A stretch of DNA of 64,000 bases from Escherichia coli. GTDB lineage: Bacteria; Pseudomonadota; Gammaproteobacteria; Enterobacterales; Enterobacteriaceae. The notes beneath the pieces are model-generated. The model was not told the origin of the DNA. It saw nothing but the letters and a program-made list of their open reading frames with translations, and ran no database searches. A program made the position numbers and the translations under genes. The stretch is from NCBI RefSeq assembly GCF_044324785.1, contig NZ_CP172128.1; one strand, written 5' to 3'. Of the stretch, positions 10,792-28,890 are shown one piece after another (positions within the stretch are counted from its first letter, which is position 1; each line of letters starts with the position of its first letter).

Positions 10792-11790
10792 ATGAAGAAG
10801 GTCCTTTGCGCGTTAGGCTTGATGTTCACCGCCGTCAGTTCCGCGCTGGCAACAACCTACCCCCTGACGATTGAAAACTGCGGCTATCAGGAGACCTTCA
10901 CCCGGCCGCCGGAGCGCGTGGTCGCGCTGGGGCAAAATACGGTCGAAATTCTGCTGCTGCTCGGGCTGCAAAAGCAGGTGGTCGCCAGCGCCTTCTGGCC
11001 GACCAGCGTTTTACCGCAGCTGGCTGAGCAAAACGCGAAGATTAAAACCTTGACGGTGGAAATTCCGAGCCTGGAATCGGTGCTGGCGCAAAATCCTGAT
11101 TTCGTTCCCGCCCAGTTGCCGCTGCTGCTGGGGCCGGAAAGCAAAGTCGCCAGGCGTGAAGATCTCGCCACCGTCGGCGTGAACAGCTACGTCTCACCGG
11201 GGGTGTGCGCCACCAAAAAGGCCACCGGCGATATGTACGGCAGCCGGCAAAAGCTGTGGGATATGACCTGGCTGTATCAGGAAATTAGCGATTTTTCCCG
11301 CATTTTCAACGTCGAAGATCGTGGTCAGGCGCTGATTGCCGATTTCAAAAAACGTGAAGCCGACCTGCGCCAGGAGTTTGGTAAAAGCAAAAAGGATCTC
11401 TCCTTCGTCTTCTGGTTCTCCAGCGCCTCACCTTCGGCCGATGCCTATGTCGGCGGCAAAAACAGCGCCTCCGGATTTATCGCCAGCGTGCTGGGCGGAC
11501 ATAATGCGATTACCTCCGAAACCGAGTGGCCCACGGTGAGCTGGGAGAGCATTATTGCCGCCAACCCGGATGTGATCGTGGTCGCCAGCCTGGATCGTAA
11601 CCGCTGGGCGCTGGATAAAGCCGAGGAGAAGATCAAATTCCTCAAAAGCGATCCCGCCGTCAGCCAGCTGGAGGCGGTGAAAAAAGGCCATATCGTGGTC
11701 ATGGACGGTCAGGCGATGAATCCGACCATTCGCACGCTTTACGGAGCGGAGCAGGTGGGCGAGCAGCTGAGAAAAATGGGGCTGAACTGA
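10792..11790 (+). CDS. ABC transporter periplasmic substrate-binding protein (iron/siderophore type)
   Basis: 332 aa with signal peptide; followed by FecCD-type permease and ATPase genes. Confidence 0.7.
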   Translation: MKKVLCALGLMFTAVSSALATTYPLTIENCGYQETFTRPPERVVALGQNTVEILLLLGLQKQVVASAFWPTSVLPQLAEQNAKIKTLTVEIPSLESVLAQNPDFVPAQLPLLLGPESKVARREDLATVGVNSYVSPGVCATKKATGDMYGSRQKLWDMTWLYQEISDFSRIFNVEDRGQALIADFKKREADLRQEFGKSKKDLSFVFWFSSASPSADAYVGGKNSASGFIASVLGGHNAITSETEWPTVSWESIIAANPDVIVVASLDRNRWALDKAEEKIKFLKSDPAVSQLEAVKKGHIVVMDGQAMNPTIRTLYGAEQVGEQLRKMGLN

Positions 11791-12827
11791 TGAGCGTCGG
11801 CGCGATTGAGACGTGCCGCAGCATACTGCTCACCGGCTGGTGTGTACTGGCAGCGATCGTGCTGGCGCTGGTGATCGCTGTGGGCGTCAGCGTTGGCGAG
11901 CTGGCCATCCCGCTGCAGAATGTCTTTTATGCTATCAGCAACAGAACCGGCTTAACCGCTGAGCCGCTCAACCGTATCTATGAGAGCGTTATCTGGGATT
12001 TCCGCCTCAGCCGCGCGCTGGTCGCCGCCTGCTGCGGCGCCGGCCTCGCTATCTGCGGTGTCGTGCTGCAAAGCTTGCTGAAGAATGCCCTCGCCGAACC
12101 CTACGTCCTCGGCGTCTCCGCCGGGGCCTCCACCGGCGCGGTGTCGATCGTGGTGCTGGGCCTTGGCTCTGGCGCAATTTCCCTCTCGGCAGGCGCCTTT
12201 GCCGGGGCCTTCGCCGCCTTCGCCTTTGTCGCCTTGCTGACTAACGGCGCGCGCGGCGGCAATGAGCGTACGATTCTTGCGGGCGTCGCCGCCTCGCAGT
12301 TATTTAACGCCATCACGGCCTATACCATCAGCACCACCGCCAGCGCGCAGCAGGCGCGCGATGTGATGTTCTGGCTGCTGGGCAGCTTCAGCGGCGTCCG
12401 CTGGCCCGAATTCCAGTTGGTCATCGTGGTGGTGCTCGCGGGTCTGGCGGTCTGCCTGTGGTATGCCCGGGCGCTGGACGCGTTCACCTTCGGCGACGAT
12501 GCCGCCGCCTCGCTGGGGATTGCTGTGCCGCGCGTGCGCCTGATCCTCTTCACCACTGCGGCGCTGATCACCGCCACCATCGTCAGCATGGCCGGCTCAA
12601 TCGGCTTTGTTGGCCTGGTGGTGCCGCACGTGATGCGTTTCTTCTTTGGCCCGCTGCACCGAACGTTGCTGATCGCCAGCGCGCTGGCAGGGGCGATATT
12701 GATGGTACTGGCGGACATTGCGTCGCGCCTGCTGATTGCCCCGCAAAGTCTGCCCGTTGGGGTAGTAACCGCCCTGGTTGGGGTGCCTTTCTTTGCCGTG
12801 ATTATCTACCGCTCAAGGAATAAGTGA
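11790..12827 (+). CDS. ABC transporter permease, FecCD family
   Basis: 345 aa, multi-pass hydrophobic, FecCD-like conserved glycine-rich segments; start overlaps upstream stop. Confidence 0.75.
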   Translation: MSVGAIETCRSILLTGWCVLAAIVLALVIAVGVSVGELAIPLQNVFYAISNRTGLTAEPLNRIYESVIWDFRLSRALVAACCGAGLAICGVVLQSLLKNALAEPYVLGVSAGASTGAVSIVVLGLGSGAISLSAGAFAGAFAAFAFVALLTNGARGGNERTILAGVAASQLFNAITAYTISTTASAQQARDVMFWLLGSFSGVRWPEFQLVIVVVLAGLAVCLWYARALDAFTFGDDAAASLGIAVPRVRLILFTTAALITATIVSMAGSIGFVGLVVPHVMRFFFGPLHRTLLIASALAGAILMVLADIASRLLIAPQSLPVGVVTALVGVPFFAVIIYRSRNK

Positions 12828-13588
12828 TGAGTATTTGCGCTGAAAATATCACCTGGAAGGCAGGCAAAAAGGTCATCGTCAATAATGTCTCGCTGCGGGT
12901 GCCGCGCGGAGAAACGGTCGGACTGCTGGGGCCCAACGGCTGCGGCAAATCCTCGCTGCTGCGCGTTCTGGCGGGCCTGCGCCGCCCGGATGCAGGTCGC
13001 GTCACCCTCGACGGCCAGGATATCGCCCGGATGGCGAAAAAGCAGCTCGCCCGCCGCGTGGCTTGCGTCGAGCAACACGGCATGACCGAGGCCAATATGC
13101 GGGTGCGCGACGTCGTGCGCCTGGGACGCATTCCCCACCACTCTCCGTTCTCAAACTGGAGCGCTCAGGATGACGAAGCGATTGCCGCCGCGCTGCAGCG
13201 GGTAGCGATGCTGGAGAAAAGCGAACAGGGATGGTTAAGCCTCTCCGGCGGCGAGCGGCAGCGGGTGCATATCGCCCGCGCGCTGGCGCAGAGCCCGAGC
13301 GAAATCCTGCTGGATGAGCCGACCAACCATCTGGATATACACCATCAGATGCAGTTAATGCAGTTGATCAGCGAGCTGCCGGTAACCAGCATTGTGGCCA
13401 TTCACGATCTTAACCATGCCGCGATGTTCTGCGATTCGCTGATCGTGATGCAGCAGGGGCAGATCCTCGCCAGCGGGACGCCGGAGGAGATTTTGTCCGA
13501 AGCGCTGCTGTGGGACGTTTTCCGGGTGAAAACCAAAATCGAGATCTCCCCTTACCACGGCAAAAAGCACATTCATTTCATCGTTTAG
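12824..13588 (+). CDS. ABC transporter ATP-binding protein
   Basis: Walker A GPNGCGKSS, signature LSGGERQR, Walker B LLDEPT. Confidence 0.85.
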   Translation: MMSICAENITWKAGKKVIVNNVSLRVPRGETVGLLGPNGCGKSSLLRVLAGLRRPDAGRVTLDGQDIARMAKKQLARRVACVEQHGMTEANMRVRDVVRLGRIPHHSPFSNWSAQDDEAIAAALQRVAMLEKSEQGWLSLSGGERQRVHIARALAQSPSEILLDEPTNHLDIHHQMQLMQLISELPVTSIVAIHDLNHAAMFCDSLIVMQQGQILASGTPEEILSEALLWDVFRVKTKIEISPYHGKKHIHFIV

Positions 13589-13599
13589 GTTGGGCGGAT

Positions 13600-14832
13600 A
13601 TGCCTCTTTTCTCCCTGCGCCCTGCGGCAACCCTCTGGCCTCCGGTGTTACTGGGAAGCCAGTTCGTTTTTAATATTGGCTTTTACGCGGTCGTACCTTT
13701 CCTCGCCCTCTTCCTGCGCGACGACATGCTGCTCTCAGGCGGACTTATCGGCCTGATCCTCGGGCTGCGTACCTTCTCCCAACAGGGGATGTTTATCCTC
13801 GGCGGGACGCTGGCCGACCGCTATGGCGCTAAGGCGATCATTCTCGCCGGCTGCGTCGTTCGCGTCGCCGGTTTTCTCCTGCTGGCGTGCGGGGCGTCGC
13901 TGTGGGCCATTATCCTTGGCGCCTGCCTGACCGGCGTCGGCGGCGCCCTGTTCTCCCCGTCGATAGAGGCCCTGCTGGCGCGGGCCGGTACCCACAGCCA
14001 GGCCAACGGGAAACGCAGCCGCGCCGAGTGGTTTGCGCTGTTTGCGGTATGCGGTGAACTGGGAGCGGTGATCGGCCCGGTGGCCGGAGGCGTGCTGAGC
14101 GGGATCGGCTTTCGACATATCGCCCTCGCCGGCGCGGGAATATTTCTTCTGGCGCTGGCGGTGCTCTTTTTCGGTCTGCCCGCCGACGGGCACACGACAA
14201 CAACGCGCAGACGAGTCCCATGGTGGACGCCTTTGCGCCAGCCGCGCTTTGTCGCGTTTATTCTCGCCTACAGCTCATGGCTGTTGAGCTACAACCAACT
14301 CTACCTCGCTCTGCCGGTGGAGATCCAACGTTCCGGCGGCCGCGAGCAGGATCTGGCGCCGCTCTTTATGCTGGCCTCGCTGTTGATTATCACCCTCCAG
14401 CTCCCTCTCGCCCGCTTCGCCCGGCGAATGGGCGCCGTGCGCATCCTGCCGGTGGGCTTTCTGCTGCTGTCGGCTTCCTTTGCCAGCGTGGCGTTATTCG
14501 CCGCCGCCCCACCCGCCGAAAGTTGGCTGCGGTTAATGCCGGCGGCTGGTTTTGTCACGCTGCTCACCCTCGGCCAGATGCTGTTAGTGCCCGCAGCCAA
14601 GGATCTGATCCCGCTGTTCGCCGAGGAGTCGACGCTGGGCGCCCACTACGGAGCGCTCGCCACCGCAGGAGGGTGCGCGGTGTTAGCCGGGAATTTACTG
14701 CTCGGTCATTTACTTGACCAGGCGCTCATTCCGTCGCCGCAGGCGGTTTATCCCTGGCTTCTGCTGGCGCTGTTTCCGCTGTGCAGCGCCGTCGCCCTGC
14801 GGGCGATCTGTCGCCCGCTGGCGGCAACATGA
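13600..14832 (+). CDS. MFS transporter
   Basis: ~410 aa hydrophobic 12-TM-like protein; ATG at 13600 just after ATPase stop preferred over the 13510 ORF-track start, which overlaps the ATPase. Confidence 0.6.
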   Translation: MPLFSLRPAATLWPPVLLGSQFVFNIGFYAVVPFLALFLRDDMLLSGGLIGLILGLRTFSQQGMFILGGTLADRYGAKAIILAGCVVRVAGFLLLACGASLWAIILGACLTGVGGALFSPSIEALLARAGTHSQANGKRSRAEWFALFAVCGELGAVIGPVAGGVLSGIGFRHIALAGAGIFLLALAVLFFGLPADGHTTTTRRRVPWWTPLRQPRFVAFILAYSSWLLSYNQLYLALPVEIQRSGGREQDLAPLFMLASLLIITLQLPLARFARRMGAVRILPVGFLLLSASFASVALFAAAPPAESWLRLMPAAGFVTLLTLGQMLLVPAAKDLIPLFAEESTLGAHYGALATAGGCAVLAGNLLLGHLLDQALIPSPQAVYPWLLLALFPLCSAVALRAICRPLAAT

Positions 14833-16307: not shown

Positions 16308-17171
16308 TTATTGTTCAGTTAACTTCATTTCGACAAGTAAAGGTAAATGATCTGAGACAGATGCATATGGCTTACTTTCAGGGGTCGCTCTATCTGACGG
16401 TTTAGGAATATATACATCTTTAATGTCCCATTTTTGAGCATTTGATGTAAGTATATAATCAATTTTCCTGTCTGGATTCCATGATGGTGCCGTGTACTTC
16501 AATTCCTTATCAGTGTCATTGAACCATGCTGTTAAATCCAAGTACTCTGTTGATTGAGGTGGTAAATTAAGATCACCCACTATAATTGGAAGTGCATTTT
16601 TAAACTGCCAAGAAGAGAATTCTGTTTGAAGAGTTCTTACTTGCTCTGCTCGTAATGGCTGCGTAGTGAAGTCCAAATGAGTAGTTACTAACATAACAGG
16701 CGCAGGATAATTAGGGACATCAACTTCTACAGCACAGGCCGCTCTTTGCTCCGCACCTTTGATGTTAGGTAGTTCCATCCTTTTACTCAATTTCAAATCA
16801 TACTTAGACAGTACTGCTGTACCATATTCCCCACCATCATGATCTATAGCCTTGCAGAAGTAATAATTCATTCCCAACTTATTAGCTATATACTCTGCTT
16901 GATTGACTGGGTTAGAACCCTCTTTACTAAAGTTCTTACCAGAACGCCCAGTCATGTTATCAACTTCTTGCAGTCCAATAATATCAACATTCATTTTACG
17001 AATTGCTTCTACAATGGCATCAGTACTCCCCATTCTAGAGGCCATTATGTTATATGACCCAACACGAATACTATCGGTATCTGCTGGACCATCCATGAGG
17101 CGATCAGAAGCTAAAGTTGAAGAGGAAAGAACTATAAACCCTATAACCGCAGCAATGCTTGTTAATTTCAT
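16308..17171 (-). CDS. secreted endonuclease/exonuclease/phosphatase (EEP, DNase I-like fold) family protein
   Basis: 287 aa; N-terminal signal peptide; EEP-type motifs (GLQEV, VGDLN, C-terminal SDHLP); low-GC gene. Confidence 0.6.
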
Positions 17172-17192
17172 TTTTACACCTTGTTATTTTTG

Positions 17193-18523
17193 TAGACTGG
17201 CCCCCTGAATCTCCAGACAACCAATATCACTTAAATAAGTGATAGTCTTAATACTAGTTTTTAGACTAGTCATTGGAGAGCAGATGATTGATGTCTTAGG
17301 ACCGGAGAAACGCAGACGGCGTACTACACAGGAAAAGATCGCTATTGTTCAGCAGAGTTTTGAACCGGGAATGACGGTCTCCCTTGTTGCCCGGCAACAC
17401 GGTGTGGCAGCCAGCCAGTTATTTCTCTGGCGCAAGCAATACCAGGAGGGAAGTCTTACTGCTGTGGCCGCAGGAGAGCAGGTCGTTCCTGCCTCTGAAC
17501 TTGCTGCTGCCATGAAGCAGATTAAAGAACTCCAGCGCCTGCTCGGCAAAAAAACGATGGAAAATGAACTCCTTAAAGAAGCCGTTGAATACGGGCGTGC
17601 AAAAAAGTGGATAGCGCACGCGCCCTTATTGCCCGGGGATGGGGAGTAAGCTTAGTCAGCCGTTGTCTCCGGGTGTCGCGTGCGCAGTTGCACGTAATTC
17701 TCAGACGAACCGATGACTGGAAAGATGGTCGCCGCAGCCGTCACTCAGATGATACGGATGTGCTTCTCCGTATACACCATGTTATCGGAGAGCTGCCCAC
17801 GTATGGTTATCGTCGGGTATGGGCGCTGCTTCGCAGACAGGCCGAACTTGATGGTATGCCTGCGATCAATGCCAAACGTGTTTACCGGATCATGCGCCAG
17901 AATGCGCTGTTGCTTGAGCGAAAAACCGCTGTACCGCCATCGAAACGGGCACATACTGGCAAAGTGGCCGTGAAAGAAAGCAATCAACGATGGTGCTCTG
18001 ACGGGTTCGAGTTCCGCTGTGATAACGGAGAAAAACTGCGAGTCACGTTCGCGCTGGACTGCTGTGACCGTGAGGCACTGCACTGGGCAGTCACTACGGG
18101 CGGCTTCGACAGTGAAACAGTACAGGACGTCATGCTGGGAGCGGTGGAACGCCGCTTCGGCAACGAGCTTCCGGCGTCTCCAGTAGAGTGGCTGACGGAT
18201 AATGGTTCATGCTACCGGGCTAATGAAACACGGCAGTTTGCCCGGATGTTGGGGCTTGAACCGAAGAACACGGCGGTGCGGAGTCCGGAGAGTAACGGCA
18301 TAGCAGAGAGCTTCGTGAAAACGATAAAGCGTGACTACATCAGTATCATGCCTAAACCAGACGGGTTAACGGCAGCAAAGAACCTTGCAGAGGCGTTCGA
18401 GCATTATAACGAATGGCATCCGCATAGTGCACTGGGTTATCGCTCGCCACGGGAATATCTGCGGCAGCAGGCCAGTAATGGGTTAAGTGATAACAGGTGT
18501 CTGGAAATATAGGGGCAAATCCA
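17193..18523 (+). mobile_element. IS2 copy 1 (insC 17284-17649, insD 17607-18512)
   Basis: 1331 bp, IRL TAGACTGGCCCCCTGAATCTCCAGACAACC, right end ...GGGGCAAATCCA; 5-bp target duplication TTTTG on both sides. Confidence 0.9.
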
Positions 18524-18673
18524 TTTTGATAGTAAATTTACATATCAAAATAAATCATAAAATCGCTTTTTTTAGTGATAAAAACCTCAAAAACAAAAAC
18601 AATTAGTGATCAACATCTCATAAGTAGTACATTTATCAACCGTTCCATTAATGTTTCATTCTATCGCGAATTA

Positions 18674-19441
18674 GGTAATGACTCCAACTTATTGATAGTG
18701 TTTTATGTTCAGATAATGCCCGATGACTTTGTCATGCAGCTCCACCGATTTTGAGAACGACAGCGACTTCCGTCCCAGCCGTGCCAGGTGCTGCCTCAGA
18801 TTCAGGTTATGCCGCTCAATTCGCTGCGTATATCGCTTGCTGATTACGTGCAGCTTTCCCTTCAGGCGGGATTCATACAGCGGCCAGCCATCCGTCATCC
18901 ATATCACCACGTCAAAGGGTGACAGCAGGCTCATAAGACGCCCCAGCGTCGCCATAGTGCGTTCACCGAATACGTGCGCAACAACCGTCTTCCGGAGCCT
19001 GTCATACGCGTAAAACAGCCAGCGCTGGCGCGATTTAGCCCCGACATAGCCCCACTGTTCGTCCATTTCCGCGCAGACGATGACGTCACTGCCCGGCTGT
19101 ATGCGCGAGGTTACCGACTGCGGCCTGAGTTTTTTAAGTGACGTAAAATCGTGTTGAGGACAACGCCCATAATGCGGGCTGTTGCCCGGCATCCAACGCC
19201 ATTCATGGCCATATCAATGATTTTCTGGTGCGTACCGGGTTGAGAAGCGGTGTAAGTGAACTGCAGTTGCCATGTTTTACGGCAGTGAGAGCAGAGATAG
19301 CGCTGATGTCCGGCGGTGCTTTTGCCGTTACGCACCACCCCGTCAGTAGCTGAACAGGAGGGACAGCTGATAGAAACAGAAGCCACTGGAGCACCTCAAA
19401 AACACCATCATATACTAAATCAGTAAGTTGGCAGCATCACC
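18674..19441 (-). mobile_element. insAB: IS1 copy 2 (inverted relative to copy 1)
   Basis: 768 bp; insA/insB ORFs identical to copy 1; no flanking duplication. Confidence 0.9.
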
Positions 19442-19616
19442 CAAGGGGCCAGTCTAGCAGATTATGGTGCGCAGTTATACAACAGCAGTAATGAGGAGTC
19501 TACTATTTCTCTTGTTATGCCAGATGCAATTGAATGGAACGGAAAGAATACGCCAAGACGGCAATACATGATAAAATATATTGCCGTATTTAAATATTAA
19601 AATTTATTTTTGTAGA

Positions 19617-20024
19617 TTATCTGAATTTTCGGTGACCTTCAAGTTTTATATCGTTCATTTTATCCAGAGACTCACGTAATGATTCTATATCCCCGTCCTC
19701 AACTTTCTTTTTTGCAATATTGATTTCATGTTGTAGTTTTTTTAACTCTTCCTTATAACTATCTACAGAAACTTTATCATTAACATCTATCTTTTCAGGA
19801 ATAATATTCATAGAAGAATCTACAGATTTATCCATCATTTCAAGAGCATTTAATAGTGATGATTTATCATTGGAAGATTGTAGAATACTCATACTTTTGG
19901 CAAGAGACTGCATGTTTTTATCCAGGCCGGAAGCCAAAGATACGTTGCTGAGAGATAAAAAAATAGCTAGTACAGCACCTGAGAAAAATACCTTTTGTTT
20001 TTTCATTAATATATTCCTGTTCAA
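19617..20024 (-). CDS. cytochrome b562 family protein
   Basis: signal peptide plus four-helix-bundle-sized protein ending ...HRKFR, like the ...HQKYR C-terminus of E. coli cytochrome b562; alternative start at Met7. Confidence 0.55.
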   Translation of the reverse strand: MNRNILMKKQKVFFSGAVLAIFLSLSNVSLASGLDKNMQSLAKSMSILQSSNDKSSLLNALEMMDKSVDSSMNIIPEKIDVNDKVSVDSYKEELKKLQHEINIAKKKVEDGDIESLRESLDKMNDIKLEGHRKFR

Positions 20025-20204
20025 AGTTGATTATAGTTATGTCAATTTAAGTTTATTATTATGATTTTTTATTTTTGTACTATGAATCTCCTGTATGCTT
20101 ATATGTGCAGAAAATCTCATTTTATCAAGAAGAATATCAAATTTTCTCCGATACTTCTACATACTCCATCATTCATGCTCCTTTTATCCGTGCACCGTAA
20201 AACC

Positions 20205-20338
20205 CCGTCCTTCAGCGGGGATATAAGGCGCTGTTTTCCACCTAACCAGGTGTCTGCTGCTATTCAATGTATTGGCGGATGACGGATGCCGCCCGTTGAA
20301 GCAGGAACCCTCGTCCTTAGGGCGTGGAGGATGTCAAA
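20205..20338 (+). repeat. 134-bp direct repeat, copy 1
   Basis: ~97% identical to 28891-29024; contains short hairpins (CCCCG..CGGGG, GGCGG..CCGCC). Confidence 0.7.
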
Positions 20339-20439
20339 ATGAAAACTTGTGGTATGAATCAATCCATTCATCATCCTTTCGGATCATTGCATTCAGTATA
20401 ACGCTGGAAGAGCCTGGCAATATCACTGTATTGATGGTA

Positions 20440-21330
20440 TTACGCCATGAATTGCTTATTTCTTAAATACGACATGCACCACAGACAGGCTTTTCCTATA
20501 CCATCGGAACGAGCGGCAAGAAATAACTTGGTGGCGTGTTTATGTTCGCGCATTGGCTTTTTAAGCAATTTACCTCTGTTCAATAACGGCAATGCCAGAT
20601 GATGTGGAATATAACCAATACCGACGTTTTGTTCTATTAAGCTGATTGCCATGGCGAAGTCAGGAACAAAAATAGGTTTTTGTCCTTCCAACAACCAGGC
20701 TTGCATTGGGGGGAAGTTAACGGAGGTATCCCGGATACAAACCGCAGGATAATGACGCAATTCACTGTTTTCTAATGGATTCCGCTTCACTGCCAGTGGA
20801 TGAAGTGGGCTGACGACAAAATCCCATTCTATTTGTCCGACCGGTTCGCTAATGATGCCTTCACTGCTTGGTACTGCATGAGGAGCACCGTAGACCAGAT
20901 CAGCACGTTTACTGTACAGCGCATCCCAGCAGCCGTTGTATACTTCAATATCTACCGTCAGTGTTGTTGATGTGAATTGCCGTTCAAAATCTTGAATAAA
21001 TGACACCAGAAAATCACCAGGTATAATATTGTTCACCGCAATTGTCAGTTCACGCTCAATACCATCGTGAATCAGCACTGTGTTGCGCTTTAATGCATCC
21101 AGATCGCGGAGAATATTTTTGCTATGTTCGATGAAGTAACTCCCCGCCGGAGATAATTCAATATATCGTCCCTTACGAATGAACAGTTCAACGCCCAGGG
21201 TTTCTTCCGCTTTCTTCAGGGTGTAACTGATAGTAGAAGGGACTTTATTTAACTGTTCGGCTGCGGTGGTGATGTTCTGGTGTCTGGCGACCAGATGAAT
21301 AATTCGAATCGTTTCGTCTGAGATGAACAT
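20440..21330 (-). CDS. LysR-family transcriptional regulator
   Basis: 296 aa; N-terminal HTH (IRIIHLVARHQNITTAAEQLNKVPSTISYTLKKAEE) and LysR substrate-binding domain. Confidence 0.8.
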   Translation of the reverse strand: MFISDETIRIIHLVARHQNITTAAEQLNKVPSTISYTLKKAEETLGVELFIRKGRYIELSPAGSYFIEHSKNILRDLDALKRNTVLIHDGIERELTIAVNNIIPGDFLVSFIQDFERQFTSTTLTVDIEVYNGCWDALYSKRADLVYGAPHAVPSSEGIISEPVGQIEWDFVVSPLHPLAVKRNPLENSELRHYPAVCIRDTSVNFPPMQAWLLEGQKPIFVPDFAMAISLIEQNVGIGYIPHHLALPLLNRGKLLKKPMREHKHATKLFLAARSDGIGKACLWCMSYLRNKQFMA

Positions 21331-21407
21331 AAGGCTCCCTGGTCAGTGGTAAAGTGGCTGAATCTCTCCAGATTCAGCCGTAATCATTGCCTGAGTATAC
21401 CCAGGAA

Positions 21408-22628
21408 TTAGCGGTGTTGACTTGCCCGACTGAGAATCGCATACGCGATACATGCCACCAGAATGGAGTCAACTGAAGGGATCGTCGTCAGGGTGAATAA
21501 GCCTTTTACGGTCATAAAGCCAACCGCTGTGCCTGTGATCCATGCAGCGAATGTCAGTACTTTAACCTGTGACTCCTGAGTTAACACCGACTCTTGATAG
21601 CCATTACGGCGATAAAGGAAAAAGTCAGCGATATAAATTCCGGCAACTGGGGGAGTCGCGATACCCAGGAACAGCAGAAACGGAATAAACCACGCCATAA
21701 TATCCATACTGCCTACGATGGCGGAAAGGATACCCAGCGCAACGGTAATCTGCCATTTGGGAAAGCGGCTAAGCAGTGTGGAAACTACCAACGTCCCCTG
21801 GAACATATTGCCCGCATTACCGGTGACGCAGGCGAATATCAGCAACAGTGCTGCAGGCATAACCGCACCGAATACTGCCATAGCATTCAGTAAAGAGCCC
21901 TGGCCGCTAATGGCACTCGGCGTTGCACCCGCCCAGTATAGCAGAGGGTAGGCAACCAGAAACGTCATACCTGCGGCAATCAGAGCATGTTTTCGGTTAT
22001 GTACAAAACTACCGAAGTCGGGAAGTGTAGCAACCAGAACAATAATAGTGCCAACAACGGTGGAAACGGCGACACCTGTACTCATCTCCGCTATCGCTGC
22101 TGGCGCTGATACTTCGGTATGGGTTGCCACATAGAGTATATAACACAGCACCAGTGCGATAACCGGCACGGCGACCTGGGCAACTTTGCCCAGAATGGAA
22201 AAACCAAAGGCCGTAGAGGCGACAAAAATGACACAACCAGCTGCCACTAACAGTGCCAGTGGCGCTTCAATCCCATTCTGCGCCAGTAAGTCATGCACCG
22301 AATGACCAAACATATTAGCGGTAACGGCAATCCAGCCGAACAGACTTATAGCCATCAAAATATTAATGGCGATGGCCCCTTTTTCGCCAAATGAATATTT
22401 CACAATACCGTATGTTGGCAGGCGGGCTTTTTCTCCCACACTAATGGTGATGGCTGAAAGTAAGGTCAGAATGACGCCGCCTAATAGTACGACGCTAATT
22501 AAACTACCACTGGAAAGTTGATTGCCGAGGCTTGAGGATGACAACAGCACAGGTGTGACGGCAATACCCAGCAAAATCATGGTAATACGCAATCCTGATG
22601 CCGTATTCATATTATCTTCTTTACGCAT
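21408..22628 (-). CDS. NCS1-type (cytosine/purine/allantoin-like) permease, putative
   Basis: 406 aa polytopic membrane protein with a transporter-like profile. Confidence 0.5.
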   Translation of the reverse strand: MRKEDNMNTASGLRITMILLGIAVTPVLLSSSSLGNQLSSGSLISVVLLGGVILTLLSAITISVGEKARLPTYGIVKYSFGEKGAIAINILMAISLFGWIAVTANMFGHSVHDLLAQNGIEAPLALLVAAGCVIFVASTAFGFSILGKVAQVAVPVIALVLCYILYVATHTEVSAPAAIAEMSTGVAVSTVVGTIIVLVATLPDFGSFVHNRKHALIAAGMTFLVAYPLLYWAGATPSAISGQGSLLNAMAVFGAVMPAALLLIFACVTGNAGNMFQGTLVVSTLLSRFPKWQITVALGILSAIVGSMDIMAWFIPFLLFLGIATPPVAGIYIADFFLYRRNGYQESVLTQESQVKVLTFAAWITGTAVGFMTVKGLFTLTTIPSVDSILVACIAYAILSRASQHR

Positions 22629-22653
22629 AATATGTTTCCTTTATAAATGCGCG

Positions 22654-23043
22654 TTACATCGTGTGAAAATTCCCGGTGTATTTGCGCCAGCCCCCCAGTG
22701 CTGTAATCTCCTTCTGGCCTTCAGTCAGCCAGCTTTCTGCCAGTACGCCCAGTACTTCGCTACCATCGGCAAGTTTGATTTTTCCAATGGTCAGGCCTTC
22801 GGGTTCGTTCATTAACAGTTCGGCAAAACTGGCCAGAGGCAGTTGCCAGATTTCTACGTCTACGTGTGCTCCTCCTTCATTCACGCGGATCATTCCGGGA
22901 TGACGATCATTAATACTCCATAACCGGTAATGGGCGTCAGTTCGGTCTTCACGGACAAAAATACCGCCCGCTTTTTGCATATTTGGGTTGAGTTCCAGAC
23001 CGCGCATCAGCGTTCCGTTAACGGCTAAAAGTGTTGTAGTCAT
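22654..23043 (-). CDS. AIG2/gamma-glutamylcyclotransferase-like protein
   Basis: 129 aa with GGCT-like fold signature at the N-terminus; family assignment tentative. Confidence 0.4.
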   Translation of the reverse strand: MTTTLLAVNGTLMRGLELNPNMQKAGGIFVREDRTDAHYRLWSINDRHPGMIRVNEGGAHVDVEIWQLPLASFAELLMNEPEGLTIGKIKLADGSEVLGVLAESWLTEGQKEITALGGWRKYTGNFHTM

Positions 23044-23059
23044 TGTGTTCTCCAGAGAA

Positions 23060-24016
23060 TTAAAGGGTTATCCATGTTCCGCTCTGATGTGCCAGGGCTG
23101 CTTTTATGGTTTGCGGTGAAGTAATCAGTCCGCTGGCCTGTTTGCCTTGTTGCTGGCTGGCATTGATGAAATCAATAATGGCTTCCACTTTGGGTTGCAT
23201 ACTGCCGACACCAAACTGACCTTCCTGCAACAGCGTTTGAGCTTCGTAGACGCTGATAGCGTCGAGCCATTGTTGTTGTGGTGTACCAAAGTTAATCGCC
23301 ACTTTTTCTACACCGGTGGGGATCACCAGCAGATCAGCGCCTAACTGACTGGCGAGCAATGCGGAGGCCAGGTCTTTATCGATCACGGCTTCCACACCTT
23401 TCAGTTGTTGCCCGTCTCGCACCACAGGTATACCGCCGCCGCCGCAGGCTATAACCAGATATCCCTGGCGCACAAGGTGAGCGATGGTGTGGTGCTCAAT
23501 AATTTCCAGTGGCGCAGGAGAGGGAACTGTACGCCGCCAACCACGCCCGGCGTCCTCCATCAGCGTCCAGCCGAGTTGTTGTTGGCATTGTTGTGCTGTT
23601 TCTTCATCAAGAAACGCGCCAATCGGTTTACTGGGGCTGGCGAAAGCATCGTCATATGGGCTGACTCGCGTTTGTGTCACCAGGGTAATTACCGGTTTGT
23701 TTATGCCACGGCGAGCCAATTCGTTATGCAGCGCTTTCTGGAACATGTATCCAATGGCGCCTTGGGTATCACCCACGGCGTAATCCAGAGGAACCGGAGA
23801 AACTTCGTTACTGGCAAGTTCAGAGCGGCGCAGAATAAAGCCTACCTGCGGGCCATTACCGTGGGTTAGCACCAGGTCCCATCCGGCTTCAACCATATCA
23901 ACGATATGCTGCACGCTTTCCATTACTGCAACATATTGATCGGGAATACTATTGCGTTTATCGTCCTGAATGAGCGCATTGCCGCCAACCGCGACGACAG
24001 CCAGTGGCTTAACCAT
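23060..24016 (-). CDS. carbamate kinase-like protein (YahI/YbcF-type)
   Basis: AVVAVGGNAL ... THGNGPQVG amino-acid-kinase motifs; start taken at MVKPLAVVAVGG rather than the upstream ORF-track start. Confidence 0.75.
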   Translation of the reverse strand: MVKPLAVVAVGGNALIQDDKRNSIPDQYVAVMESVQHIVDMVEAGWDLVLTHGNGPQVGFILRRSELASNEVSPVPLDYAVGDTQGAIGYMFQKALHNELARRGINKPVITLVTQTRVSPYDDAFASPSKPIGAFLDEETAQQCQQQLGWTLMEDAGRGWRRTVPSPAPLEIIEHHTIAHLVRQGYLVIACGGGGIPVVRDGQQLKGVEAVIDKDLASALLASQLGADLLVIPTGVEKVAINFGTPQQQWLDAISVYEAQTLLQEGQFGVGSMQPKVEAIIDFINASQQQGKQASGLITSPQTIKAALAHQSGTWITL

Positions 24017-25433
24017 GATGGTTCTCCTTTGCGACGATCTCCGCCAGTTCACGTACAGCAGCGACAAAACAGGCCATCGGTGCAGTGGTGATCCCGGCAC
24101 CAATTTGTCCGACTCCCGCTTGTTTGTGGGCGATACCCGTATTGATGACCGGTAAAATGCCACGATCGGTCACTTTACACGCATCAATACCTGCTGCGGT
24201 GGGGGCAAAATTGAGGGCTGGAAGTGTAAATGCGGGGTTACCGCCGAGGGTGATTGCCTGCATCCGACGGCTGTTATTGGTGGCATCGGCAGGGGTGCCT
24301 CCCACAAATTTAACAATCGCCGGAGATGACGCCATCGCGAAGCCACCCACACCTGCGGTTTCAGTAATTGCGCTATCACCCAGGTCAGCAGCGGCGTCGT
24401 CAACGCCAAATCCGGGGAAGAACAGACCTTCAACTGCATTGGCAGGAGCCTGGAACCAGCGATCGCCAGTACCGGAAAGCCGAATACCAAAATTCACCCC
24501 GTTACGCGCCATCACCGTAACCATTGAACTGAACGGTACATTGGCGGCGGCATCCATCATTGCTTTACAGGCAGCCATCGACAAATTGAGGAAGAAGTGA
24601 TCGTTACCTGTGATAAATGCCACGACGCGCTGGATATGTTCCTGTGGAAGAGAGCAGGCCAGCAATGCCGGGAGCAGGCGCTTAATCAGCAAACCGGTAG
24701 CGGCAGCATTGCGGTTATGAACTTCATCCCCCATATGCAGCGCCTGCGCCATTAATGGCTTGAGTTCCAGCTCGCCGTGTTGTGCGATTGCTGCTTTCAT
24801 GGCCGGCGCCAGTTCATCACGCATCCAGGCCAGACGATTGAGAACTTCATCGTTATTGGCACCAAAACGGAGAACCTTACCCAGACCCTCATTGAAATTG
24901 CTAAAAGTACGATGGCCGTTGGTTTTGTTTTCCACCACCCATAATGGCATAGACGGGCTGATAATGCCTGCCATTGGTCCAACCGCGTGATAATGATGAC
25001 AAGGAGCAAGGTCGATTTCGCCTGCGTTTATCTGGTTTTCTGCGTCTTTCTGGCTTGTAGCCCAGCCTTCGTACAGCATGGCACCAATAATCGCCCCTTT
25101 TACCGGACCACACATATCTTCCCAGGCAATCGGTGGACCAGAGTGTAAAATGCGTTTTTGTTCAGCCATTTCGGGGATGGCTTCTTTAGCGAGCATGACA
25201 TCCACCAACACGGGCTGTGCTTCGAGATAACGTGTCATGGCGATTTGGTTGGCACTTTCTACCAGTGGATGGCGTAGTAATGACGCCAGAACCAAACCGG
25301 TGTCAATATCACCTTGTGCTGGCGGCTGCCAGTTGAGGGATATAGCATGCCCTCCTGCATGTTGAATATTGTCAGCAAAACTGTGTAGTCCCGCGTTCAC
25401 GACCTTCAAAGGCTGATTAAATAAGGTATTCAT
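24009..25433 (-). CDS. DUF1116 protein (YahG/YlbE-like)
   Basis: ~474 aa, conserved partner of FdrA-like and DUF2877 proteins; start taken at MNTLFNQPL. Confidence 0.65.
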   Translation of the reverse strand: MNTLFNQPLKVVNAGLHSFADNIQHAGGHAISLNWQPPAQGDIDTGLVLASLLRHPLVESANQIAMTRYLEAQPVLVDVMLAKEAIPEMAEQKRILHSGPPIAWEDMCGPVKGAIIGAMLYEGWATSQKDAENQINAGEIDLAPCHHYHAVGPMAGIISPSMPLWVVENKTNGHRTFSNFNEGLGKVLRFGANNDEVLNRLAWMRDELAPAMKAAIAQHGELELKPLMAQALHMGDEVHNRNAAATGLLIKRLLPALLACSLPQEHIQRVVAFITGNDHFFLNLSMAACKAMMDAAANVPFSSMVTVMARNGVNFGIRLSGTGDRWFQAPANAVEGLFFPGFGVDDAAADLGDSAITETAGVGGFAMASSPAIVKFVGGTPADATNNSRRMQAITLGGNPAFTLPALNFAPTAAGIDACKVTDRGILPVINTGIAHKQAGVGQIGAGITTAPMACFVAAVRELAEIVAKENHHG

Positions 25434-26989
25434 GCATTTAGCTCCTTTTTCTGCAACTGAGTCTGTGCAACGGTGCTGGCCCATAGCGCCGCCTGTGCAT
25501 TGCTGTTGGCAATGATGACGCCTGCATTTTGTAGTGAGCTTATCTGCTGACTGCGTATTTGCGGATCAGCTTCTGTTCCGCAAACGTGGGCAATCAGCAA
25601 CGGTGCATTATTCATGTCGATGTGTGAAAGTTGGTCCAGTAATTCGCTGACAGGCGTAGCGGAGGTGCCATAACCAAGTACAAGGTCGAATAACACAACG
25701 GCAGTATGTGAGTCGTTGAGTTCGTTGAGCAGACGTTGATTGCGCAGAGTCGGGTCGATCATTGGATGCGGTTTGCCACGGGTGAAATCATCGTCCCCCA
25801 TATCAATCAGTGTATGATCTTCACTTTGCCAGATATTTGCCAGAGCACGATTACCCGCAACTGGCGTATTGGAGGCGGCATGGAATCCCTTTTGTTGGCA
25901 GATAAGCTGAGCTTCGTAACAGAAGGTTCCTCCGGCGAAAACACCGCGTATCGCCTGGCGATGGACTGGCAGACTTTGGCAGGCGTTTTGTAACATTGTG
26001 AGATCGTCGCAGGAAACCTCGTTCTCGACAGCCGGAAGTGGCTGATCATTCAGTAACGCCACAGCGATGTCGGCGGCGCTGGCAAGTGTGGTGGCGGCAG
26101 TGATATTGGGACGTGCCAGATCATGCGGATTCGCCCCGAGGAAATTCACCACCACGGGTTTTCCACAAGCCTCGGCGCGCTCCAGAATAGTCCGGGCAAC
26201 GATCGGTGAAGGCGGTTTTGAAATAAGAACAATCACGTGAGTTTCATCGTCTTGTGCCAGCGCATCTAAAGCAAAGAGCATTGATATTCCACCAATCTCT
26301 TCACTGAGATCATGTCCGCCTGTTCCCAACGCCTGAGAAATACCCGCTCCGAGCTGGTCGATTCGGCAAGTCACTTCCTGTAGCCCGGTGCCTGACGCGC
26401 CAATAACACCAATTGCTCCGCGTTTCACCACATTAGCGAAGCCTAACGGAATGCCGTTAACAATGGCGGTTCCACAGTCAGGTCCCATTACGATACGCTG
26501 ACGTTCTCGGGCAAGCGTTTTGATGTATTTTTCCTGCCCGATACTGACGTTATCGCTGAACATCATCACGTTCATTCCGAGGTTTAACGCTTTAATTGCT
26601 TCGGCGGCGGCGTAGTCTCCCGGTACAGAAATGAGTGCCAGGTTGGCTTCGGGTTCAGCTTCCAGTGCCATTTCCAGGCTGACCTTTTCCGGTGATTTAA
26701 TGCCACAATCCGTTTCATCATCGGGTTTGCTGGTCAGACGTTGCTGGGCCAGTAGCAGTGCTTCATTGCAAATATCTTCTTCACCCATGACTGCAATCAC
26801 TAAATCATTGGGACTGGCGTTGATTTCGTTACCCAGACCCGCATCGCGCAATTGCTCGAGATTATTGGGTGTTCCCATGACGACCGAGGCCTGTTGAATA
26901 CCGGGCAACTTGCTGATTTGCGCGGAAATCTGCATCAGAGAAACTGAGTCCTGATAAAGATTACTGAAAACTTTATATTTAACTTTCAT
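25430..26989 (-). CDS. FdrA-like protein (YahF-type, succinyl-CoA-synthetase-alpha-like fold)
   Basis: ~519 aa, CoA-ligase/NAD-binding Rossmann-like N-domain; start taken at MKVKYKVF. Confidence 0.65.
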   Translation of the reverse strand: MKVKYKVFSNLYQDSVSLMQISAQISKLPGIQQASVVMGTPNNLEQLRDAGLGNEINASPNDLVIAVMGEEDICNEALLLAQQRLTSKPDDETDCGIKSPEKVSLEMALEAEPEANLALISVPGDYAAAEAIKALNLGMNVMMFSDNVSIGQEKYIKTLARERQRIVMGPDCGTAIVNGIPLGFANVVKRGAIGVIGASGTGLQEVTCRIDQLGAGISQALGTGGHDLSEEIGGISMLFALDALAQDDETHVIVLISKPPSPIVARTILERAEACGKPVVVNFLGANPHDLARPNITAATTLASAADIAVALLNDQPLPAVENEVSCDDLTMLQNACQSLPVHRQAIRGVFAGGTFCYEAQLICQQKGFHAASNTPVAGNRALANIWQSEDHTLIDMGDDDFTRGKPHPMIDPTLRNQRLLNELNDSHTAVVLFDLVLGYGTSATPVSELLDQLSHIDMNNAPLLIAHVCGTEADPQIRSQQISSLQNAGVIIANSNAQAALWASTVAQTQLQKKELNA

Positions 26990-27083
26990 GCTGTTACGCC
27001 TGTTCCATTCCGCCCGATAGCAAAATTCGGGCAAAGCATCCCCGTGTAGCCCCATAAACGGGCTACGGGAGAAAAGGTTGAAA

Positions 27084-27944
27084 TCAATTCATGGTGTTCA
27101 GGGTTCGAAATCCATGCAGCATTCCTGCAAGGCAATTTACTCCTGATGTTGCGCCAAATTGCATGATCTGTTCTGTACAGGATGCGATTGTCATTGCCGA
27201 TGCGCTCCCAACCAGTTGTGCGAGTAACCGGCAAATCGGTTCTGAAAAATGTCCCTGAAGCGCACGTTGCAGATAATGACGACTTATATCCGTGGTGTTG
27301 TGTGCATGTTGTTCAATTGCCTTCTGCAACCTGTATTGATGATTGGCAAGTGGTGCAGGGAGTTGCCATAACCAGAGGGCTGCCAGATAGCCCAGCAAAT
27401 AGTCATCTCCATCGGGCGTTAAGCCTTTACCAAAGCCGATCAGTTGGGGTACCTGGCGTTCCAGCGCATCTGGATGTTCCATAATATCTAATCCCTGGTG
27501 CGTGAGACTATCCGGCAGGTGCAATGTGCTTTGAACGTTATGCTCCAGACAAAATAAAAGCCGTTGCGATGCTATCGTGGGGTAGTGCTGGAAAACCAAA
27601 GGCAATGCCTCAAGAGTCAGCATTCCCCCCACAAATGGCGACTGCCAGAGCGTTGCGTTATCGAGCGCCACACAAAATCGAGGTGTCCGCAGTAAGCCTG
27701 GGGTTAACTGAATGGGATCTGAATGGGCAATCTCTCTTCGCCAGTCCCAACATTCAGGTAGCCAGACTCTGGCAGCATCAGGGAGATTCAGATACGTTTG
27801 CGCACACAACAGAGTGATGAATGTTCCCGCGTCTGAATACAGATTTACCGCATGTTTAAAAGCGCTATGTAGACGTAAATCTTGCGTTTCATTCTGCGGG
27901 AAAAGATATCCTAACGACGATGCACAAAGCGTAACCTGTACCAT
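27084..27944 (-). CDS. DUF2877 protein (YahE/YlbF-like)
   Basis: 286 aa; conserved third member of the FdrA/DUF1116/DUF2877 trio. Confidence 0.6.
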   Translation of the reverse strand: MVQVTLCASSLGYLFPQNETQDLRLHSAFKHAVNLYSDAGTFITLLCAQTYLNLPDAARVWLPECWDWRREIAHSDPIQLTPGLLRTPRFCVALDNATLWQSPFVGGMLTLEALPLVFQHYPTIASQRLLFCLEHNVQSTLHLPDSLTHQGLDIMEHPDALERQVPQLIGFGKGLTPDGDDYLLGYLAALWLWQLPAPLANHQYRLQKAIEQHAHNTTDISRHYLQRALQGHFSEPICRLLAQLVGSASAMTIASCTEQIMQFGATSGVNCLAGMLHGFRTLNTMN

Positions 27945-27949
27945 CGGCG

Positions 27950-28618
27950 TTAGCCTTCCAGACCTGCAATAATGGCTTTGGAATCAGTAACCCAACCGAA
28001 AATGGCACCTTGTGCTTTGATCATCTCAAGGGCGTATTTCTGGAATTCCGGGAAATAGGAGCCAACGCAATCTTCCGGTATGATGCATTCATAGCCACGG
28101 TCATTTGCTTCACGCACGGTGGTGGTTACGCAAACTTCGGTAGTCACGCCACAAACAATAAGTGTCTTGATACCACGCTTTTGCAAAATCAGATGTAAGT
28201 CGGTTTGATAAAAAGCGCCTTTACCGGGTTTATCAATCACAGGTTCGCCTGTCACTGGATACAGTTCAGGAATGATGTCATGACCTGCCTCACCCCTGAC
28301 CAGAATGCGTCCCATCGGTCCTGGTTCACCAATAAAGGTTTTTCCGCCGCGCGTCAGTTTGGCTGATGGGCAGTCGCTTAAGTCTTCACGATGGCCTTCA
28401 CGGGTATGAATAACCATAATTCCTTTTTGACGTGCGGCTACCAGAACTTCTTTACATGGTGCGATAGCCGTGCGAACCAGTGAAACATCATTACCCAATG
28501 CTTCTCCAAACCCTCCTGCTTCGACAAAATCACGTTGCATGTCTATCATGATCAGTGCCGTTGTGCACGGATCAAAGGGTAATTCAAAGGGTTGAGCCTG
28601 AAAAATGGATATCGTCAT
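27950..28618 (-). CDS. isochorismatase-family cysteine hydrolase
   Basis: ALIMIDMQRDF ... catalytic-Cys region IVCGVTTEVCV typical of isochorismatase/N-carbamoylsarcosine amidase family; start at MTISIF with GGAG RBS. Confidence 0.75.
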   Translation of the reverse strand: MTISIFQAQPFELPFDPCTTALIMIDMQRDFVEAGGFGEALGNDVSLVRTAIAPCKEVLVAARQKGIMVIHTREGHREDLSDCPSAKLTRGGKTFIGEPGPMGRILVRGEAGHDIIPELYPVTGEPVIDKPGKGAFYQTDLHLILQKRGIKTLIVCGVTTEVCVTTTVREANDRGYECIIPEDCVGSYFPEFQKYALEMIKAQGAIFGWVTDSKAIIAGLEG

Positions 28619-28890
28619 GACAAATCTCCAGTATATATTGTTTACTGGTGACGAGTATTCAATATAAAGGTGACCCACAACAGAAAAAAAAGTTGTTTTA
28701 CAGGAGCGAATATTTTTGAGGTGTCTAAATGTTGTTATGAAAAATGTGATTTATATCAATCTATGACATTCATAAACAACTTTTTTCAAATGTTTATTTG
28801 TTTAATATTAAAAAAATTGTCGATATATTGTGATATTAATCATCCTATTTGGCAGGGATAGTGCTGATTTTTAACAAATACCCCTTACAT

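What the first reader, a model, noticed from the sequence alone, without database searches (positions are those of the whole stretch)
19617..20024. Plasmid-borne cytochrome b562-like gene
It is a low-GC gene with a signal peptide and the C-terminal heme-ligand region resembling cytochrome b562; it is unusual as plasmid cargo and sits next to an IS1 end.
Basis: partly seen in the sequence, partly recalled or inferred. Interest (0 to 1): 0.3.

Follow-up and report, generated by a model that had tools for sequence, protein, structure and literature searches.

The report
Orphan plasmid cytochrome b562 gene
This is an ordinary, already-annotated gene for a small exported haem-binding protein of the cytochrome b562 family; its one point of interest is that its closest relatives sit directly behind a periplasmic catalase-peroxidase gene (katP), which this plasmid region lacks.

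Summary
The gene has 31.5% G+C against 51% for the window, and it lies 174 nt from the end of a complete IS1 (18675-19442).

The protein scores above the Pfam cut-off for Cytochrom_B562. Its predicted structure is a four-helix bundle that superposes on solved b562 structures (rmsd 1.3-1.5 Å). Met32 and His125 align with the haem ligands Met7 and His102 and are invariant across 24 relatives. It is only 19% identical to E. coli CybC and fails NCBI's CybC equivalog cut-off, so it is a family member but not the CybC orthologue.

The identical protein is already in RefSeq as "cytochrome b562" (WP_032354229.1). About 82 PLSDB plasmids and 138 of 5,426 complete E. coli genomes carry this type, so it is not unusual plasmid cargo.

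New here: it belongs to a plasmid clade (99.5% bootstrap) whose other members include the gene directly downstream of katP on pO157. The window copy is an orphan bounded by IS remnants, with no katP in the 64 kb, yet it is under purifying selection (dN/dS about 0.25).

Likely function: a periplasmic one-electron carrier or haem binder descended from a peroxide-defence module. That role is inferred, not shown.

The parts
19617..20006 (-). CDS for a 129-aa cytochrome b562-family precursor (ATG 20006..20004, stop TAA 19619..19617).
   Evidence: ORF list. Identical to the RefSeq CDS WP_032354229.1 'cytochrome b562'. Pfam PF07361 55.7 bits > 30. AF2 four-helix bundle matching the 256b structure.
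19932..20006 (-). Predicted Sec signal peptide, residues 1-25 (MKKQKVFFSGAVLAIFLSLSNVSLA | SGLDKNM...).
   Evidence: Shows the n/h/c-region pattern, with small residues at -3 and -1. Aligns with the CybC leader, so that the ligand Met is residue 7 of the predicted mature protein, as in CybC. pLDDT <50 for residues 1-23. No dedicated signal-peptide predictor was run.
19911..19913 (-). Codon for Met32, the predicted axial haem ligand, equivalent to Met7 of mature CybC.
   Evidence: Invariant column in alignments A1 and A2. Codon position read.
19632..19634 (-). Codon for His125, the predicted axial haem ligand, equivalent to His102 of mature CybC.
   Evidence: Invariant column in A1 and A2. Aligned to the CybC His in the PDB sequence search.
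20015..20018 (-). Shine-Dalgarno-like AGGA, 8 nt upstream of the ATG.
   Evidence: Read directly from the sequence. Retained as AGGAG in the 71%-identical type B allele (printout).
20030..20086 (-). Promoter-like region: TTCATA-17-CATAAT (20086..20058) and a perfect TATAAT (20035..20030). It lies inside the roughly 97 nt upstream stretch shared with the type B allele.
   Evidence: Consensus scan, where the number of sites was no higher than in shuffled sequence, so this is weak evidence.
19555..20103 (-). Low-G+C cassette (gene plus about 97 nt upstream and about 62 nt downstream). This is the only stretch shared at nucleotide level (77%) with the type B allele, which sits in a different plasmid context.
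   Evidence: blastn of window 19300-20600 against L004. G+C trough.
18675..19442 (-). Complete IS1 (768 bp) abutting the 3' side of the cassette. No 9-bp target duplication, so a rearrangement junction is inferred.
   Evidence: Terminal repeats read. InsA/InsB ORFs. Homology with most ColV-type plasmids stops exactly at 19442.
20182..20287 (.). A roughly 106-nt remnant of an IS200/IS605-family element end, lying between the cassette and the LysR gene.
   Evidence: About 91% identity to the ends of annotated IS200/IS605 tnpA elements in more than 4,000 E. coli genomes.

Best explanation
The gene encodes a Sec-exported periplasmic protein of about 104 residues. It is a four-helix bundle that binds one non-covalent b-type haem between Met32 and His125, which makes it a divergent member of the cytochrome b562 family.

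It is an orphaned sister lineage of the b562 genes that lie directly downstream of the periplasmic catalase-peroxidase gene katP (pO157 L7018 and relatives). By descent, its most likely role is as a small one-electron carrier, or haem donor, in periplasmic peroxide and oxidative-stress defence. On this plasmid it is expressed from its own promoter and must work with host-encoded partners, because no katP is present.

Shown here: family membership, fold, ligand conservation, clade membership, purifying selection, and mobile-cassette structure. Inferred: haem binding, export, and any redox or peroxidase partnership.
For: Family and fold:
- Pfam PF07361 scores 55.7 bits against a cut-off of 30.
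- The PDB sequence search returns only cytochrome b562 entries.
- The AF2 model has pLDDT above 90 over the mature part and four helices.
- The top Foldseek PDB hits (50 listed) are all cytochrome b562: the native protein, engineered variants, or b562/BRIL fusion partners. Target TM is about 0.9 and rmsd 1.3-1.5 Å over 104 columns for the 106-residue b562 chains.

Ligands:
- M32 and H125 are invariant in 24 sequences ranging from 19% to 98% identity.

Relation to katP:
- The nearest non-allelic relative, P0057 (44% identity), lies 38 nt downstream of a 737-aa peroxidase.
- The pO157 b562 gene lies 46 nt downstream of katP.
- Two further lineages, P0066 and P0080, show the same arrangement.
- All four peroxidases have signal-peptide-like N-termini.
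- An NJ tree joins the window clade with the katP-linked clade at 99.5% bootstrap.
- Y. pestis katY-cybC-cybB is an RT-PCR-verified operon (PMC2231364).
- L7018 protein was detected and was 6.3-fold higher in vivo in piglets (PMC3686733).

Maintained as a gene:
- dN/dS is 0.26 (0.23 for the mature part) between the window allele and the 71%-identical type B allele.
Against: - No katP or any peroxidase homologue is present in the 64-kb window (tblastn), so the proposed partnership cannot operate in cis here.
- No experiment shows that any b562 protein donates electrons or haem to KatP or KatY.
- The physiological role of CybC itself is unknown (my own knowledge).
- In Y. pestis, CybC rose 4.7-fold under iron starvation while KatY fell (PMC2835676). 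That pattern fits a haem or iron role better than strict co-function with the peroxidase.
- Other family members sit in unrelated contexts.
- Frameshifted copies exist in the databases (P0031, P0039, P0042).
- The protein scores 65.7 bits against the 130-bit cut-off of the CybC equivalog model.
Confidence: 0.85

Rival explanations
1. It acts as a periplasmic haem buffer or chaperone rather than an electron carrier. The protein would bind free haem reversibly, either protecting the periplasm or handing haem to exported haem-b enzymes or to uptake systems, and so contribute to iron and haem economy on a virulence plasmid.
For: Y. pestis CybC is periplasmic, listed as Fur-linked, and rose 4.7-fold under iron starvation while KatY fell (PMC2835676). 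Related plasmids and this window carry the eitABCD iron ABC transporter a few kb away (10792-14832). KatP is exported with a Sec-type leader, so it must acquire haem b outside the cytoplasm (inference).
Against: There is no significant Fur box upstream: the best match is 13/19, reached by 76 of 500 shuffles. The distance and arrangement relative to eitABCD differ between plasmids, with IS elements in between, so the linkage is not tight. No haem-transfer activity has been reported for any b562 (my own knowledge).
Confidence: 0.3
2. It is functionally inert hitch-hiking cargo: a leftover of a katP-b562 module that lost katP and is carried passively between IS elements, with no benefit to the host.
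For: It is flanked by IS1 and an IS200/IS605 remnant. No katP is in the window. Frameshifted variants exist. K-12 tolerates an inactive chromosomal cybC (my own knowledge).
Against: dN/dS of 0.23-0.26 across two alleles that differ at 44% of synonymous sites (pS 0.435; corrected dS 0.65) indicates sustained purifying selection after separation from katP. Both ligands and the leader architecture are retained in all intact alleles. The upstream 97 nt, including the SD and -10-like motifs, is conserved between alleles.
Confidence: 0.15
3. It is the last gene of the adjacent LysR-regulated catabolic cluster (permease, carbamate kinase, DUF1116, FdrA, DUF2877, cysteine hydrolase) and serves that pathway as a redox partner.
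For: It has the same orientation as the cluster. The b562 / LysR-cluster junction is conserved in at least 83 plasmids.
Against: A 433-nt gap containing an IS200/IS605 remnant separates it from the LysR gene. G+C drops from about 45-55% to about 31%. The type B allele shares only the 19555-20103 cassette and sits in a different context. The cluster's products are cytoplasmic or membrane-type enzymes, whereas this protein carries an export signal. The paralogous cluster on APEC plasmid L002 has no b562 beside it.
Confidence: 0.04

Closest known systems
E. coli soluble cytochrome b562 (CybC; PDB 256b; Pfam PF07361)
   Same: Same Pfam family. Same four-helix bundle, rmsd about 1.3-1.5 Å. The cleavable leader is at the same position. 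Met7 and His102 equivalents are invariant, as is Pro45. Phe61 is replaced by Tyr and Tyr105 by Phe, both conservative.
   Different: Only 17-19% identity. Two residues shorter in the helix 2-3 loop. Fails the NCBIfam CybC equivalog cut-off (65.7 against 130 bits). Plasmid-borne, 31.5% G+C, bounded by IS elements.
pO157 L7018, the cytochrome b562-family gene downstream of katP
   Same: Same plasmid clade (99.5% bootstrap). 43-49% identity. Shared motifs LQSS, LPEKI and EGHxKFR. Low G+C (38%). Similar dN/dS.
   Different: L7018 lies 46 nt behind katP and moves with it as a 2.8-kb block. The window gene has no katP and has its own upstream region.
Yersinia pestis katY-cybC-cybB operon
   Same: A periplasmic catalase-peroxidase followed by a b562 gene, co-transcribed (PMC2231364). 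This is the same logic as katP-L7018.
   Different: It is chromosomal and includes the membrane cytochrome b561 gene cybB. No cybB-like gene was noted among the genes called or annotated next to the plasmid b562 copies, though the window itself was not searched for one. The Yersinia sequence itself was not compared here.

Membership tests
Cytochrome b562 family (Pfam PF07361) | Sequence match to the family profile above the curated gathering score | tested here: met
   55.7 bits against a cut-off of 30, E = 8.6e-15, covering profile positions 2-102 of 102.
Cytochrome b562 family (Pfam PF07361) | Up-down-up-down four-helix bundle of about 106 residues | tested here: met
   AF2 model with helices at 24-44, 48-65, 78-103 and 107-128, pLDDT above 90 in the mature part. 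Foldseek hits to 256b, 4er9 and others: target TM about 0.9, rmsd 1.3-1.5 Å.
Cytochrome b562 family (Pfam PF07361) | Axial haem ligands Met7 (helix 1) and His102 (helix 4) | tested here: met
   M32 and H125 align with them and are invariant in 24 sequences and in the 7-sequence plasmid clade.
Cytochrome b562 family (Pfam PF07361) | N-terminal cleavable signal peptide and periplasmic location | tested here: inconclusive
   The leader has typical n/h/c regions, an SLA|S cleavage site, and aligns with the CybC leader. No signal-peptide predictor or experiment was available.
Cytochrome b562 family (Pfam PF07361) | Non-covalent binding of one haem b, with a 562-nm alpha band when reduced | not testable with these tools
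   Needs purified protein and spectroscopy.
CybC orthologue (NCBIfam NF011632 equivalog) | Score at or above the equivalog cut-off | tested here: not met
   65.7 bits against a cut-off of 130. 19% identity to CybC.
katP/katY-linked b562 module | b562 gene directly downstream (under 60 nt) of a signal-peptide-bearing catalase-peroxidase gene | tested here: not met
   No peroxidase homologue anywhere in the window (tblastn with two KatP sequences, no hits at E<=1). Upstream there is an IS200/IS605 remnant and then a LysR gene.
katP/katY-linked b562 module | Phylogenetic membership of the clade that contains the katP-linked b562 genes | tested here: met
   NJ tree on mature regions: the joint clade has 99.5% bootstrap support. 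44-49% identity to its members against 17-30% to all other family members.

The most novel reading that the evidence does not exclude
Cytochrome b562 has no known physiological role despite being a classic model protein. It may in fact be a dedicated partner of periplasmic catalase-peroxidases, either as reductant for the peroxidase cycle or as the haem-b donor for the exported apo-enzyme. On this reading, the orphan copy on poultry-associated E. coli plasmids has been retained under selection because it also serves host-encoded periplasmic haem or redox partners during infection.
Probability: 0.2. Interest if true: 0.5.

Novelty: already known. Interest (0 to 1): 0.2.

Why it matters
As a sequence feature it matters little. 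The gene is correctly named in RefSeq and belongs to a well-studied structural family.

The useful by-product is comparative. In at least four independent lineages, plus the published Yersinia operon, a b562 gene sits immediately behind a periplasmic catalase-peroxidase gene. The ColV/APEC-type copy is a selected orphan of that lineage. This gives a concrete, testable lead to the unknown physiological role of cytochrome b562, as an electron or haem donor to KatP/KatY. It also flags a small secreted haem protein carried by E. coli plasmids, many of them from poultry or extra-intestinal (ExPEC/APEC) isolates, that nobody has characterised.

Tried and rejected
- **katP remnant upstream of the gene:** blastn and tblastx of 19300-20600 against four related loci showed similarity only over the b562 coding region, plus short flanks with type B. 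tblastn of two KatP proteins against the whole window, L004 and L007 found nothing.
- **Fur box upstream:** best match 13/19, reached by 76 of 500 shuffles, so not significant. The type B allele's best match, 14/19, was reached by only 16 of 500 shuffles, which is suggestive but was not pursued.
- **Sigma-70 promoter and terminator scan:** the number of sites was no higher than in shuffled sequence.
- **Rfam over the whole window:** nothing near the gene; the only hit is an ALIL element at 32234-32350.
- **Pattern scan with the plasmid-clade alignment A2:** returned only five short katP-b562 contigs, 96-99% identical to pO157, filed under unrelated taxa (three in Lachnospiraceae MAGs; one each in an Acinetobacter and a Terrisporobacter isolate assembly). 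This gave no information on a donor organism.
- **Literature:** searches for a described function of the plasmid gene, or for a KatP-b562 interaction, found none. The original katY paper, tried by a PMC id recalled from memory, is not held.
- **Operon with the LysR cluster:** rejected on the IS remnant, the G+C break and the independent mobility of the cassette.

Full report
**1. The observation**

The minus strand carries an ORF at 19617..20024, 135 aa counted from a TTG. Seven codons in there is an ATG (20006..20004), preceded by AGGA with an 8-nt spacer (20018..20015). The resulting 129-aa product is exactly what RefSeq annotates (WP_032354229.1, 'cytochrome b562') in plasmid NZ_CP100531.1, which is 100% identical over window 19400-20440.

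The CDS is 31.5% G+C (GC3 25%) in a window that averages 51.1%. The trough spans about 19400-20200.

A complete 768-bp IS1 occupies 18675-19442, with both terminal repeats visible. Its end is 174 nt from the stop codon. Only the start coordinate needs trimming.

**2. What the protein is**

- Pfam assigns it to Cytochrom_B562 (PF07361) at 55.7 bits against a gathering score of 30, end to end on the profile.
- A sequence search of the PDB returns only cytochrome b562 entries.
- Against NCBI's CybC equivalog model it scores 65.7 bits, with a cut-off of 130, and it is 19% identical to E. coli CybC. It is a family member, not the CybC orthologue.
- In a 24-sequence alignment spanning 19-98% identity, the only invariant columns are M32, L55, P70 and H125. 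These correspond to Met7, Leu30, Pro45 and His102 of mature CybC. Met7 and His102 are the axial haem ligands (established knowledge of the 256b structure).
- With cleavage after VSLA (residue 25), the ligand Met is residue 7 of the predicted mature protein, as in CybC.
- An AlphaFold2 model built on this alignment has pLDDT above 90 across the mature part. It shows four helices (24-44, 48-65, 78-103, 107-128) and a disordered leader.
- Foldseek against the PDB puts cytochrome b562 structures first, as native protein, engineered variants or b562/BRIL fusion partners. Examples are 256b, 2bc5 and the Salmonella structure 4er9. Target-normalised TM is about 0.9 and rmsd 1.3-1.5 Å over 104 columns for the 106-residue chains.

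It was run and did not refute.

**3. Distribution**

The word-indexed protein search found only close relatives, nearly all E. coli. They fall into a window-type allele group (93-100% identity) and a type B allele (about 71%). There is also an apparent A/B recombinant (P0032) and a Klebsiella copy at 80%.

The exhaustive HMMER search over 1.8 billion cluster representatives found only 27 proteins at E<=1e-3. The nearest outside this group is 44% identical (P0057), and the rest are 25-34%.

tblastn against PLSDB finds a relative in 581 plasmids, 570 of them Escherichia. By identity to the window protein:
- 82 plasmids at >=90%
- 5 plasmids at 60-90%
- 494 plasmids below 60%

The 1,041-bp window segment is found nearly complete in 138 of 5,426 complete E. 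coli genomes. Many of the best-matching records are plasmids of poultry or extra-intestinal (ExPEC/APEC) isolates. The gene is therefore not unusual plasmid cargo, and it is already named in public annotation.

**4. What its relatives sit next to**

- P0057 lies 38 nt downstream of a 737-aa peroxidase (PF00141) that is 87% identical to KatP.
- The copies below 60% identity that were inspected are the pO157 gene (locus L7018), 46 nt downstream of katP. The spread listings suggest most of the 494 are of this type.
- Two more distant lineages, P0066 and P0080, also lie 53 and 28 nt downstream of 730- and 738-aa peroxidases.
- All four peroxidases begin with signal-peptide-like sequences.
- The katP-b562 pair moves as a roughly 2.8-kb block. 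Three short contigs filed under Lachnospiraceae MAGs carry it at 96-98% identity to pO157, with different flanks.
- In the literature, Y. pestis katY-cybC-cybB is an RT-PCR-verified operon (PMC2231364).
- The L7018 protein was detected in O157:H7 and was 6.3-fold more abundant in piglet intestine than in vitro (PMC3686733).
- A neighbour-joining tree of mature regions groups the window-type alleles (100% bootstrap) as sister to the pO157, P0057 and Salmonella-plasmid genes. The joint clade has 99.5% support.

**5. The window copy is an orphan cassette**

No KatP homologue exists anywhere in the 64 kb, and no katP remnant lies upstream.

Nucleotide similarity between the window allele and type B, which sits in a different plasmid context, is limited to 19555-20103. 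That covers the gene, about 97 nt upstream (including the SD and -10-like motifs) and about 62 nt downstream.

On the 5' side, 20182-20287 is a roughly 91%-identical fragment of an IS200/IS605-family element end. On the 3' side is IS1. Homology with most ColV-type plasmids stops exactly at 19442, and IS1 has no 9-bp target duplication.

The adjacent LysR / permease / carbamate kinase / DUF1116 / FdrA / DUF2877 / cysteine hydrolase cluster (20440-28678) has 45-55% G+C. Its products are cytoplasmic or membrane-type, and I reject co-function with it.

Despite being orphaned, the gene is under purifying selection. dN/dS is 0.26 overall and 0.23 for the mature part, against type B at dS 0.65. This is similar to the katP-linked pair (0.23), whereas KatP itself is at 0.05.

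**6. Mechanism**

With high confidence (about 0.85), this is a Sec-exported periplasmic b-type cytochrome with Met/His ligation.

Its role is inferred. By descent from katP-linked genes, it is most likely a soluble one-electron donor to a periplasmic peroxidase activity. I rate that subordinate claim at about 0.35.

The main rival, at about 0.3, is a haem-buffering or haem-donor role. It is supported by the opposite responses of CybC (up 4.7-fold) and KatY (down) to iron starvation in Y. pestis (PMC2835676). The proximity of eitABCD adds weak support. No convincing Fur box is present upstream.

Passive hitch-hiking is disfavoured by the dN/dS result.

**7. Verdict**

The feature is already known at annotation level and belongs to a thoroughly studied fold, so interest is low. 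The one worthwhile lead is the recurrent catalase-peroxidase / b562 synteny. It offers a testable hypothesis for the unknown physiological role of cytochrome b562.

Noticed in passing
window 20440-28678 (- strand): A LysR-headed cluster: cytosine-type permease (21408-22628), a 129-aa hypothetical protein, carbamate kinase, DUF1116, FdrA, DUF2877 and a cysteine hydrolase. It resembles the chromosomal fdrA-ylbE-ylbF-ybcF group of E. coli. APEC plasmid L002 carries two diverged paralogous copies of such a cluster. It is probably a nucleobase or carbamoyl-compound catabolic pathway with no assigned substrate.
   Followed up: partly
window 17193-18523: A complete IS2 (1,331 bp) with an intact 5-bp target duplication (ttttg at 17188-17192 and 18524-18528). 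It is inserted 21 bp upstream of the start codon of an endonuclease/exonuclease/phosphatase-family gene (16308-17171, - strand). The insertion is absent from the otherwise near-identical plasmids NZ_OY754359.1 and NZ_CP100531.1, so it looks recent.
   Followed up: partly
window 20182-20287: A roughly 106-nt fragment about 91% identical to the end of IS200/IS605-family elements found in more than 4,000 E. coli genomes. It contains repeated hairpin-like motifs (ccccgtccttcagcgggg / ccctcgtccttagggcg).
   Followed up: partly
window 10792-14832 (+ strand): An eitABCD-like iron ABC transporter (substrate-binding protein, permease, ATPase) plus an MFS gene, followed by another IS1. Together with the b562 gene and the IS elements, this forms a mosaic accessory region shared with IncI/K and IncF ColV-type plasmids.
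   Followed up: no
window 32234-32350 (+ strand): ALIL pseudoknot (Rfam RF01497, 107.8 bits), the programmed-frameshift element of IS3-family transposases. It implies an IS3-family element there.
   Followed up: no
L006 5955-6000; L003 7963-8000; L014 4948-5000: The short spacer between the catalase-peroxidase gene and the b562 gene contains a G+C-rich perfect hairpin with no T-run in three of four lineages (for example GAGGGAGGGCACCTCCCTC). It may set the relative expression of the two genes.
   Followed up: no
L009, L010, L011, L012, L013: katP-b562 contigs 96-99% identical to pO157 are filed in GTDB representative genomes of Lachnospiraceae MAGs, Acinetobacter idrijaensis and Terrisporobacter mayombei. 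These are almost certainly binning or assembly contamination with E. coli plasmid DNA.
   Followed up: partly
L007 3827-6390 (Salmonella plasmid pCFSAN024229): The Salmonella plasmid copy of the b562 clade lies about 1.7 kb from a periplasmic Cu/Zn superoxide dismutase gene (sodC), with no katP. This is another pairing with a periplasmic oxidative-stress gene.
   Followed up: no
P0032 against the window allele and P0037: P0032 has the leader of the window-type allele and the mature region of type B. This suggests recombination between the two alleles at about the signal-peptide boundary.
   Followed up: no
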